IMG/VR virus record: IMGVR_UViG_3300023179_000069
Location: 1-64,000 of that record
DNA: 64,000 nucleotides
Origin: a virus
Strand: one strand, 5' to 3'
Below, piece after piece: positions 58,773-58,849 of the stretch. Numbering within the stretch: position 1 is the first letter of the stretch; each line of letters begins with the position of its first letter. The position numbers and the translations under genes are program-made. The notes beneath the pieces were generated by a model. It was given only the letters and a program-made list of their open reading frames with translations. It did no database searches and was not told the origin of the DNA.

Positions 58773-58849
58773 CCCTCCGTATCTCCTGTCGCTTCTAACG
58801 ACTTGAAAGAGTAATTGGATACATGCAGGTTCGATTCCTGTCGGGGGGA
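58773..58849 (+). ncRNA. tRNA-Arg(UCU)-like RNA with missing or displaced D-arm
   Basis: Acceptor CCCTCCG/CGGGGGG; T arm GCAGG-TTCGATT-CCTGT; GTCG-CTTCTAA-CGAC only 8 nt after acceptor; 22-nt extra segment after it. Confidence 0.65.

What the first reader, a model, noticed from the sequence alone, without database searches (positions are those of the whole stretch)
58773..58849. tRNA-Arg(UCU)-like RNA with rearranged topology: D-loop-like sequence follows the anticodon arm
Seen: good acceptor stem, T arm and a canonical CU-UCU-AA anticodon loop, but only TATCTCCT between acceptor and anticodon arm. After the anticodon arm comes TTGAAAGAGTAATTGGATACAT, containing a D-loop-like AGTAATTGG and GATA that can pair with TATC (58780-83). 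The anticodon arm therefore appears nested inside the D-arm. Total length is a normal 77 nt and it sits behind a promoter, in tandem with a normal tRNA-Asn. Inference: a non-canonical tRNA fold or tRNA mimic (AGA decoder or decoy for anticodon nucleases) that standard tRNA finders may miss.
Basis: partly seen in the sequence, partly recalled or inferred. Interest (0 to 1): 0.8.

Follow-up and report, generated by a model that had tools for sequence, protein, structure and literature searches.

The report
Rewired non-cloverleaf phage arginine tRNA
This 77-base gene of a lake phage is very probably a working arginine tRNA for the AGA codon whose D-arm pieces are joined in a different order around the anticodon arm, a conserved phage design that breaks the rule that tRNAs used by bacterial ribosomes are cloverleaves.

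Summary
ARAGORN and the Rfam tRNA model both miss it. It is not a decayed one-off. Two pattern scans of viral contigs gave 94 distinct sequences with the same layout. The narrower of the two patterns was also run on 185,579 prokaryote species genomes: none of its 100 matches had the layout.

The anticodon arm sits inside a 3-bp helix, 58783-85 with 58809-11. This helix is paired in 94 of 94 members, in ten different base combinations.

Members carry only Arg or Ile-type anticodons, and the base after the D-loop-like GG tracks them. It is A in 58 of 58 Arg members, matching A20, the main ArgRS determinant. It is U or C in all 36 Ile-type members.

In the nearest relatives a normal tRNA-Arg(UCU) sits behind the same promoter in the same slot. 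The 82-kb contig has no other tRNA-Arg, and AGA makes up 63% of its Arg codons.

Expression and charging are untested. Six literature searches found no description. This scan has already noted the same family on other DNA.

The parts
58732..58761 (+). Sigma-70-like promoter: TTGACA, 18-nt spacer, TAATAT. It ends 11 nt before the tRNA 5' end.
   Evidence: 10 of 12 consensus positions. It is conserved with L002 and L024, where it drives a canonical tRNA-Arg(TCT).
58773..58849 (+). Rewired tRNA-Arg(UCU) gene, 77 nt, without an encoded CCA.
   Evidence: R1 score 95.7 bits; the sequence is in the seed. Not called by ARAGORN or Rfam.
58773..58779 (+). Acceptor stem, 5' strand; pairs with 58842-58848.
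   Evidence: All 7 pairs show changes on both sides in the family.
58780..58782 (+). UAU connector: U8, an inferred A21 analogue, and U10.
   Evidence: T8 and A9 are invariant and T10 is at least 90% conserved in A2. The roles are inferred.
58783..58785 (+). Helix H, 5' strand (CTC); pairs with 58809-58811. Inferred to stand in for D-stem strand 23-25.
   Evidence: Paired in 43 of 43 and 94 of 94 members, with 10 base combinations. Helix H was not part of any filter.
58788..58802 (+). Anticodon arm: 4 Watson-Crick pairs and the 7-nt loop CTTCTAA, anticodon TCT at 58794-58796. It is flanked by a conserved U.U at 58787/58803.
   Evidence: all 4 pairs covary.
58803..58808 (+). Conserved UUGAAA linker on the 3' side of the anticodon stem.
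   Evidence: Fixed by the search patterns, so its conservation within the set is by construction. It is replaced by other linkers in the phi92-type members.
58809..58811 (+). Helix H, 3' strand (GAG). Inferred to stand in for D-stem strand 10-12; its G is invariant like G10.
58812..58824 (+). D-loop-like segment TAATTGGATACAT. It holds inferred analogues of A14 and R15, a 0-3 nt variable stretch, G18 G19, then A (the A20 analogue), ending in AU before the T stem.
   Evidence: The base after GG is A in 58 of 58 Arg-anticodon members. The identity rule comes from PMC9976931.
58825..58841 (+). T arm: 5-bp stem and loop TTCGATT.
58842..58849 (+). Acceptor stem 3' strand and discriminator A.
58860..58932 (+). 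Canonical tRNA-Asn(GUU), 10 nt downstream. It is probably co-transcribed.
   Evidence: 68.7 bits.
58286..58735 (+). Upstream ferritin-like (Dps-type) gene, used as the synteny anchor.
   Evidence: PF00210, 64.3 bits.

Best explanation
The gene encodes a working elongator tRNA-Arg(UCU). It is transcribed from its own promoter together with tRNA-Asn, trimmed, given CCA by the host, charged by the host ArgRS and used to read AGA, the phage's commonest arginine codon.

It is not a cloverleaf. After U8-A9-U10 the chain runs straight down one strand of a 3-bp D-stem-like helix into the anticodon arm. It returns through a UUGAAA linker and up the other strand of that helix. Only then does it form a D-loop-like segment (A14/R15-like AA, G18 G19, A20-like A) that leads into the T arm.

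My inference is that the usual L-shape and its elbow contacts are kept and only the backbone threading differs. Shown here: the helices, their covariation, the coupling of identity elements to the anticodon, the orthologous replacement of a canonical gene, and restriction to viral sequence in what was searched. Inferred: transcription, processing, charging, decoding and the 3D equivalence. Why phages keep this design is open. My leading guess is escape from an enzyme, of host defence or of the phage itself, that reads the canonical D-arm or variable-loop geometry.
For: 1. Structure under selection. On 43 distinct members, 99.5% of cells are paired and covariation is 0.951 against 0.223 in shuffles (0 of 500) and at most 0.157 for slid partners. 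Helix 11-13/37-39 is 100% paired, with pair 11-39 as AU 17, CG 13, GC 11, UA 2. In the wider set of 94 distinct members this helix has 3 of 3 pairs in all 94, in 10 combinations, and it was not used as a filter. On 73 distinct rows of a model-fitted alignment it is again 100% paired, and all 3 pairs change on both sides.

2. tRNA hallmarks are kept: U33 in 93 of 94 members, A37 in all 94, a GTTC T loop, a 7/5 acceptor/T geometry, and an encoded CCA in 30 of 94.

3. Synthetase identity tracks the anticodon. Anticodons are only ACG 26, TCT 21, CCT 9, TCG 1 and CCG 1 (Arg), and GAT 22, TAT 12 and CAT 2 (Ile-type). The base after GG is A in 58 of 58 Arg members and U in 35 and C in 1 of the 36 Ile-type members. 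The discriminator is A or G in 52 of 58 Arg members and A in 36 of 36 Ile-type members. The bacterial identity sets are Arg: A20, C35, U/G36, A/G73; Ile: U20, A73 (PMC9976931, Table 1 and the arginine section, passages read).

4. Orthologous replacement. In L002 and L024 (ferritin-like protein 77% and 76% identical) the same gene end, the same promoter and the same 3' flank surround a canonical tRNA-Arg(TCT). A second slot behaves the same way: directly after tRNA-Leu(TAA), L003, L008 and L009 have the canonical gene and L014 and L023 the rewired one.

5. Need. ARAGORN finds no tRNA-Arg in the whole 82,471-bp contig. AGA is 521 of 824 Arg codons in 66 long ORFs. The contig's other tRNAs also read A-ending codons: Ile-UAU, Gly-UCC, Thr-UGU.

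6. The DNA is real. A contig from a second study matches 58645-58826 with no difference.

7. Feasibility. The E. coli translation machinery accepts an engineered tRNA that lacks the whole D-arm (PMC11551756, passages read).
Against: No experiment and no RNA data bear on this gene.

The proposed fold is not the predicted minimum. It scores -19.9 kcal/mol against -24.3 for a competing hairpin in this copy. With the acceptor and T arms forced, ViennaRNA predicts the 3-bp helix in only 17 of 94 members and the anticodon stem in 41 of 94. The fold therefore rests on covariation and would need tertiary contacts.

The anticodon stem has only 4 Watson-Crick pairs plus a U.U.

Microbacterium phages Zooman and A3Wally carry a canonical tRNA-Arg(ACG) as well as a rewired one. 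The rewired form is therefore not always the sole decoder and may do something a normal tRNA does not.

Many 'invariant' positions (TTGAAAG, TAA, GG, AT, GTTC) were fixed by my search patterns. Pairing in the acceptor, anticodon and T stems was part of my filter, so only helix H and the identity correlations are free of selection by me.

The contig is about 66% complete by CheckV, so a canonical tRNA-Arg could lie in the missing part.
Confidence: 0.74

Rival explanations
1. A tRNA mimic or decoy. The RNA is made and looks like tRNA-Arg to some enzyme (a host anticodon nuclease, another tRNA-targeting defence effector, or a modification enzyme) and soaks it up or blocks it, but it is not used for decoding.
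For: Zooman and A3Wally keep a canonical tRNA-Arg(ACG) beside the rewired one, as if the two did different jobs. tRNA-targeting defences and phage tRNAs that counter them are documented. I saw the abstracts of PMC10264068, PMC11555353, PMC13096335 and PMC12445682 in the listing.
Against: A decoy for an anticodon nuclease has no obvious need for the A20-like base, the discriminator rule, the 7/5 acceptor/T geometry or an encoded CCA. All of these are kept and follow the anticodon class. In this phage and in two slots of its relatives the rewired gene stands in place of the canonical one, not beside it.
Confidence: 0.12
2. A working tRNA whose odd threading has no advantage. It arose once by rearrangement, is tolerated by the machinery, and spread by recombination and with mobile nuclease cassettes.
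For: HNH or endonuclease VII genes lie directly beside the rewired gene in A3Wally and Zooman, and Streptomyces phage records annotate an HNH gene over it. The acceptor stem and flanks of the window's copy resemble those of the canonical gene in L002 and L024, as partial gene conversion would give.
Against: The design persists with tight conservation in phages of very different hosts: E. coli, Bacteroides, Microbacterium, Streptomyces and lake viromes. It was found in no prokaryote genome searched. That is hard to square with neutrality. In this window the nearest HNH gene is 3.5 kb away.
Confidence: 0.1
3. A decayed pseudogene or an assembly artefact with no function.
For: Gene finders reject it. 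The nearest relatives have a normal gene in the slot.
Against: There are 94 distinct homologues with compensatory changes in all four helices. Identical sequence occurs in a contig from another study. The promoter is intact.
Confidence: 0.02

Closest known systems
Canonical class I phage and bacterial tRNA-Arg(UCU) (Rfam RF00005), for example the gene in the same slot of L002 (3491-3565) and L024 (3485-3559)
   Same: Same promoter and slot, same anticodon, 7-bp acceptor stem, 5-bp T stem with a GTTC loop, a D-loop GGA motif, an A discriminator and a similar length (75 against 77 nt).
   Different: There is no D hairpin and no variable loop in the usual places. One D-stem-like strand precedes the anticodon arm, and the other strand and the D-loop-like segment follow it. 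The anticodon stem has 4 Watson-Crick pairs plus a U.U. RF00005 and ARAGORN do not detect it.
D-armless mitochondrial tRNAs (for example mt tRNA-Ser of mammals and Ascaris), as reviewed in PMC7609411
   Same: No D hairpin between the acceptor and anticodon stems, only a short connector (passages read).
   Different: Those tRNAs have lost the D loop and its contact with the T loop, are shorter, and work with adapted mitochondrial factors. Here the GG-containing D-loop-like segment is kept but moved, the length is a normal 77 nt, and the setting is bacterial cytosolic translation.
Engineered D-armless mini HisT in E. coli (PMC11551756)
   Same: A non-cloverleaf tRNA accepted by a bacterial synthetase, EF-Tu and the ribosome (passages read).
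   Different: Mini HisT is artificial, has bases 11-25 simply deleted (62 nt), and needed a pnp mutation to be usable in vivo. The phage family is natural and keeps D-stem-like and D-loop-like elements.
allo-tRNAs with 8/4 or 9/3 acceptor/T geometry (PMC5389517, abstract seen)
   Same: Natural non-standard tRNAs found in bacteria and their phages through sequence mining.
   Different: Those remain cloverleaves with altered stem lengths. This one has the standard 7/5 geometry but a different strand order.

Membership tests
Canonical tRNA (cloverleaf, Rfam RF00005) | 7-bp acceptor stem with a discriminator base | tested here: met
   58773-79 pairs with 58842-48, followed by A58849. All 7 pairs covary in the family.
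Canonical tRNA (cloverleaf, Rfam RF00005) | T arm: 5-bp stem and a 7-nt loop starting TTC | tested here: met
   58825-41.
Canonical tRNA (cloverleaf, Rfam RF00005) | Anticodon arm with a 7-nt loop, U33 and a purine at 37 | tested here: met
   The loop is CTTCTAA. The stem has 4 Watson-Crick pairs plus a U.U instead of 5 pairs.
Canonical tRNA (cloverleaf, Rfam RF00005) | D hairpin between positions 9 and 26, and a variable region between the anticodon and T arms | tested here: not met
   Only 8 nt lie between the acceptor and anticodon stems. The D-loop-like segment follows the anticodon arm.
Canonical tRNA (cloverleaf, Rfam RF00005) | Score at or above the RF00005 gathering threshold (29 bits), or a call by ARAGORN | tested here: not met
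   There is no RF00005 match even at E up to 10 in a 501-nt search, and no ARAGORN call.
Bacterial tRNA-Arg identity set (PMC9976931, Table 1) | C35, U/G36 and A/G73 | tested here: met
   Anticodon TCT and discriminator A. The rule was read.
Bacterial tRNA-Arg identity set (PMC9976931, Table 1) | A20 in the D loop | tested here: inconclusive
   An A follows GG (58819), as in 58 of 58 Arg-anticodon members and in none of the 36 Ile-type members. That it occupies the spatial place of A20 is inferred.
Bacterial tRNA-Arg identity set (PMC9976931, Table 1) | Aminoacylation by ArgRS | not testable with these tools
   Needs a charging assay.
Rewired phage tRNA family (model R1, built here) | Covarying 3-bp helix around the anticodon arm, then a GG-containing segment and the T arm; R1 score far above canonical tRNAs | tested here: met
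   The window scores 95.7 bits (it is in the seed). Members outside the seed score 36-93 bits. Canonical tRNAs score at most 24.3 bits in phage loci and at most 31.3 bits in 156 prokaryote genomes.
D-armless mitochondrial-type tRNA | Loss of the D loop and of the GG contact with the T loop; shortened molecule | tested here: not met
   A TAATTGGATA segment is present and the length is 77 nt.
Permuted tRNA genes (red-alga type; recalled, from no call) | The 3' half is encoded before the 5' half, so the acceptor ends are internal to the gene | tested here: not met
   The two acceptor strands lie at the two ends of the gene.
allo-tRNA (8/4 or 9/3) | 12-bp acceptor branch split 8/4 or 9/3 | tested here: not met
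   The split here is 7/5.

The most novel reading that the evidence does not exclude
Bacterial ribosomes, EF-Tu, RNase P, the CCA enzyme, ArgRS and IleRS routinely use natural tRNAs that are not cloverleaves. Phages re-threaded the tRNA core: the same L-shape and elbow contacts, but a different backbone path, with no D hairpin and no variable loop. They keep this design because it is invisible to, or uncuttable by, enzymes that recognise the canonical D-arm or variable-loop geometry, such as host tRNA-cleaving defence effectors or the phage's own host-shutoff tRNases. The window's gene would then be an attack-proof AGA decoder.
Probability: 0.3. Interest if true: 0.95.

Novelty: new variant of a known kind. 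Interest (0 to 1): 0.85.

Why it matters
The cloverleaf is treated as universal outside organelles. [quoted passage not shown]

A natural, widespread phage family with a different strand order would have several consequences:
- It would show that the same 3D adaptor can be built with another topology.
- It would explain unannotated gaps in phage tRNA arrays. Phage phi92, for example, has no annotated tRNA-Arg among the 16 tRNA features listed in 49-58 kb, yet carries a rewired one. Phage tRNA repertoires are therefore under-counted.
- It would give a handle on what tRNA-targeting defences recognise.
- It would offer new scaffolds for orthogonal tRNAs.

Cultured carriers with laboratory hosts make all of this directly testable.

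Tried and rejected
Thermodynamic folding alone gave a different, non-tRNA fold for this copy, with z -1.70 and 14 of 200 shuffles folding as well. I did not use it as evidence for structure.

A first pattern tied to this copy's T arm and acceptor found nothing in viral contigs.

The Hsp20-like downstream protein gave no related loci.

The weak Rfam hit YrlA at 58799-58917 (18.9 bits against a gathering score of 69) spans two genes. I dismissed it.

An intron or a permuted-gene reading was rejected, because the acceptor strands lie at the two ends of the gene and the anticodon hairpin is intact.

Expression: no RNA holder was listed for the window. The four runs laid are DNA contigs and say nothing about transcripts.

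A tertiary Levitt-type pair (A at 58814 with U at 58824) could not be tested. Both columns are fixed by my patterns or nearly invariant.

No RNA 3D modelling tool was on hand.

Literature: six full-text searches returned no paper describing a phage or bacterial tRNA with this strand order. I saw listings and abstracts only, except for passages of PMC7609411 ('phage' occurs 0 times), PMC11551756 and PMC9976931. Subscription journals and supplementary files were not searchable, so a prior description cannot be excluded.

Rows dropped before counts:
- of 66 viral matches, 53 passed the fold filter. Three of the 13 failures belong to the family: L086 has 5 of 7 acceptor pairs, L089 is a 3' half only, and L110 is cut by the locus end. 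The other 10 are unrelated.
- of 100 prokaryote matches, none passed. One lies at a locus edge and could not be judged.
- 126 rows passed and 16 failed. Eight failures have the family design with 4-5 of 7 acceptor pairs, one is the L089 remnant, one is the L110 edge case, and six are unrelated.

Full report
**What is there.** The window is the first 64 kb of an 82,471-bp viral contig, estimated 66% complete. Its GC content is about 29-38%. It is a tailed phage: it encodes a portal, head protease, head protein, DnaB-like helicase, DNA polymerase, UvsX-like recombinase and large terminase. Its DNA recurs in lake and freshwater metagenomes.

- a 7-bp acceptor stem;
- 8 nt of connector;
- a hairpin with loop CTTCTAA (anticodon UCU);
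- UUGAAA, then GAG;
- a D-loop-like TAATTGGATA, then CAU;
- a standard T arm, the acceptor 3' strand and discriminator A.

A sigma-70-like promoter ends 11 nt upstream. A canonical tRNA-Asn starts 10 nt downstream. ARAGORN does not call the element. The Rfam tRNA model gives no match even at E up to 10.

**Not a one-off.** The upstream ferritin-like protein brought in 80 related viral loci. nhmmer found the same odd layout in L053, L014 and L023, with compensatory changes. A pattern built from the conserved middle part matched 65 stretches of viral contigs. Of the 66 matches, 53 passed a simple fold filter, and three of the failures were still visibly related.

The same pattern matched 100 stretches in one genome for each of 185,579 prokaryote species, and none had the layout. 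With covariance model R1 those 100 stretches score at most 23.2 bits. Together with the first pattern it gave 94 distinct members.

Model R1 separates the family cleanly:
- the window scores 95.7 bits, though it is part of the seed;
- A3Wally scores 90.8, Zooman 77.3, Kehishuvirus 'tikkala' 72.9 and phi92 51.1 bits;
- canonical tRNAs in the same loci score at most 24.3 bits;
- in 156 prokaryote genomes the best score was 31.3 bits, and the four hits I checked are ordinary ARAGORN-called tRNAs.

This is 'not found in those searched', not proof of absence.

**The fold.** On 43 distinct Arg-type members, the four-helix structure is 99.5% paired. Covariation is 0.951 against 0.223 in shuffles (0 of 500) and at most 0.157 for slid partners. 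My filter required pairing in the acceptor, anticodon and T stems, so the informative result is the helix I did not filter on. Positions 11-13 with 37-39 (58783-85 with 58809-11) are 100% paired. Pair 11-39 occurs as AU 17, CG 13, GC 11 and UA 2. Pair 12-38 occurs as CG 27, UA 12, AU 3 and GC 1. Pair 13-37 is an invariant C-G.

In the wider set this helix has 3 of 3 pairs in 94 of 94 members, in ten combinations. On 73 distinct rows of a model-fitted alignment it is again 100% paired, and all three pairs change on both sides.

Its fourth pair is unpaired in 28 of 43 sequences, so I reject it.

Against the fold: nearest-neighbour energies do not favour it. In this copy it scores -19.9 against -24.3 kcal/mol for a competing hairpin. 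With the outer arms forced, the 3-bp helix is predicted in only 17 of 94 members. It would need tertiary support, as short helices in a tRNA core do.

**How it may map onto a normal tRNA (inference, untested).** In a cloverleaf the D stem stacks on the anticodon stem. One strand (22-31) is continuous. The other is broken between 44 and 10. Here the break appears to have been moved.
- U8 is followed directly by an A that could play A21. The chain then runs down N11-N12-C13, standing for 23-25, into the anticodon stem.
- The returning strand is joined through UUGAAA to G37-N38-N39, standing for 10-12. The invariant G-C resembles G10-C25.
- After that come U, AA (like A14 and R15), a stretch of 0-3 nt (like the variable 16/17 region), GG (18/19), the identity base (20), and finally AU before the T stem (U like Y48).

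If this is right, the L-shape and elbow are kept and only the backbone path differs.

**Identity.** The looser pattern did not constrain the anticodon or the four bases after GG. The 94 members nevertheless carry only ACG 26, TCT 21, CCT 9, TCG 1 and CCG 1 (Arg), and GAT 22, TAT 12 and CAT 2 (Ile-type).

The base after GG is A in 58 of 58 Arg members. In the 36 Ile-type members it is U in 35 and C in 1. The discriminator is A or G in 52 of 58 Arg members (U in 5, C in 1) and A in 36 of 36 Ile-type members.

The review PMC9976931 lists the bacterial identity sets. For Arg they are A20, C35, U/G36 and A/G73, with U73 also listed. For Ile they include U20 and A73. It calls A20 the main determinant for E. 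coli ArgRS (passages read). A decoy for an anticodon nuclease would not need this coupling, so it is my main argument that these RNAs are aminoacylated. The window's copy has the A, C35, U36 and A73.

**Context.** L002 and L024 have ferritin-like proteins 77% and 76% identical to the window's. The alignment runs through the gene end, the promoter and the 3' flank. In those two loci a canonical tRNA-Arg(TCT) fills the slot; in the window the rewired gene does. The acceptor stems are even alike, which hints at conversion of the interior only.

A second slot shows the same swap. Directly after tRNA-Leu(TAA), L003, L008 and L009 have the canonical gene, and L014 and L023 have the rewired one. Of the 26 loci scanned, twelve have a canonical tRNA-Arg(TCT).

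The whole contig has no ARAGORN tRNA-Arg. AGA is 521 of 824 arginine codons (63%) in 66 long ORFs. The other phage tRNAs also serve A-ending codons.

The DNA is not an assembly artefact. One run's contig covers 58727-58907 without a difference. A contig from a different study covers 58645-58826 without a difference.

**Cultured carriers.**
- E. coli phage phi92 has a variant in an unannotated gap of its tRNA array. It has a 5-bp anticodon stem, another linker, UCU and an encoded CCA. None of the 16 tRNA features listed in that 9-kb stretch is a tRNA-Arg.
- The relative Antha labels the same gene 'tRNA-OTHER'.
- The crAss-like Kehishuvirus 'tikkala' has an unannotated Ile(GAU) member.
- Microbacterium phages A3Wally and Zooman have unannotated Arg(ACG) members next to endonuclease genes.
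- Streptomyces phage records annotate HNH genes over the matching stretch. I did not fetch or check those records.

ARAGORN misses the gene in the four cultured phage genomes I scanned: phi92, Kehishuvirus 'tikkala', A3Wally and Zooman.

One result cuts against simple replacement. A3Wally and Zooman also carry a canonical tRNA-Arg(ACG).

**Verdict.** The best reading is a functional, rewired tRNA-Arg(UCU), at about 0.74. A decoy is at about 0.12. A working but selectively neutral, cassette-spread variant is at about 0.10. A pseudogene or artefact is at about 0.02. The remaining 0.02 covers readings I have not thought of.

Why phages keep the design is unknown. Escape from enzymes that read the canonical D-arm or variable-loop geometry is a guess, prompted by recent reports of tRNA-cleaving defences (abstracts).

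I found no description in six full-text searches. A 2020 review of non-canonical tRNAs never mentions phages. A 2024 paper states that all known bacterial tRNAs are cloverleaves.

This scan has already reported the same family on other DNA, with Arg and Ile members, and also pseudoknotted sub-types that I did not examine. I reached the family, the helix and the Ile member before reading those notes. They agree with my results and are not independent evidence.

Noticed in passing
L345 354-426 and 498-573; L250 518-592 and 995-1071: Microbacterium phages Zooman and A3Wally carry a canonical and a rewired tRNA-Arg(ACG) within a few hundred bases of each other, next to endonuclease VII or HNH genes. 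Only the canonical one is annotated.
   Followed up: partly
L089, minus strand, around 4888-4918: A 3' half of a rewired tRNA-Arg (from the UUGAAA linker to CCA) sits directly after the 3' end of another tRNA. It looks like a recombination remnant.
   Followed up: no
window 58812-58843 (loose ends in runs X1 and X4): Other contigs from the same lake and freshwater samples share this stretch, but a different anticodon arm precedes it. One has loop TTGCGAA (anticodon GCG). Another has UCU with a different linker. Further family variants therefore co-occur in these waters.
   Followed up: no
L335 5182-5347; L306 4872-5165; L259 89-170; L247 1462-1540: Lower-scoring R1 hits (36-51 bits) show sub-types with other linkers, a 5-bp anticodon stem or longer segments after GG, including an Ile(UAU) member of the phi92 type.
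   Followed up: partly
window 54730-55227: An HNH endonuclease gene (PF01844, 44.8 bits) lies just downstream of tRNA-Ile(UAU) at 54508-54583, about 3.5 kb from the rewired tRNA.
   Followed up: no
contig G000:C1 74172-74468 (outside the window); L024 5849-6133: ARAGORN calls tmRNA-like genes in this phage contig and in a related locus. I did not check whether they are real.
   Followed up: no
L250 (Microbacterium phage A3Wally record): The record's tRNA labels read the anticodon as if it were a codon, for example 'tRNA-Thr(acg)' and 'tRNA-Val(gtt)'. ARAGORN calls these Arg(acg) and Asn(gtt).
   Followed up: no
window 60352-62287: GDP-mannose 4,6-dehydratase and an NAD-dependent epimerase are encoded just downstream of the tRNA region. 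These are sugar-nucleotide genes carried by the phage.
   Followed up: no
window 58905-59120: A small ORF lies directly after tRNA-Asn and before the next consensus promoter at 59110-59139. I did not examine it.
   Followed up: no
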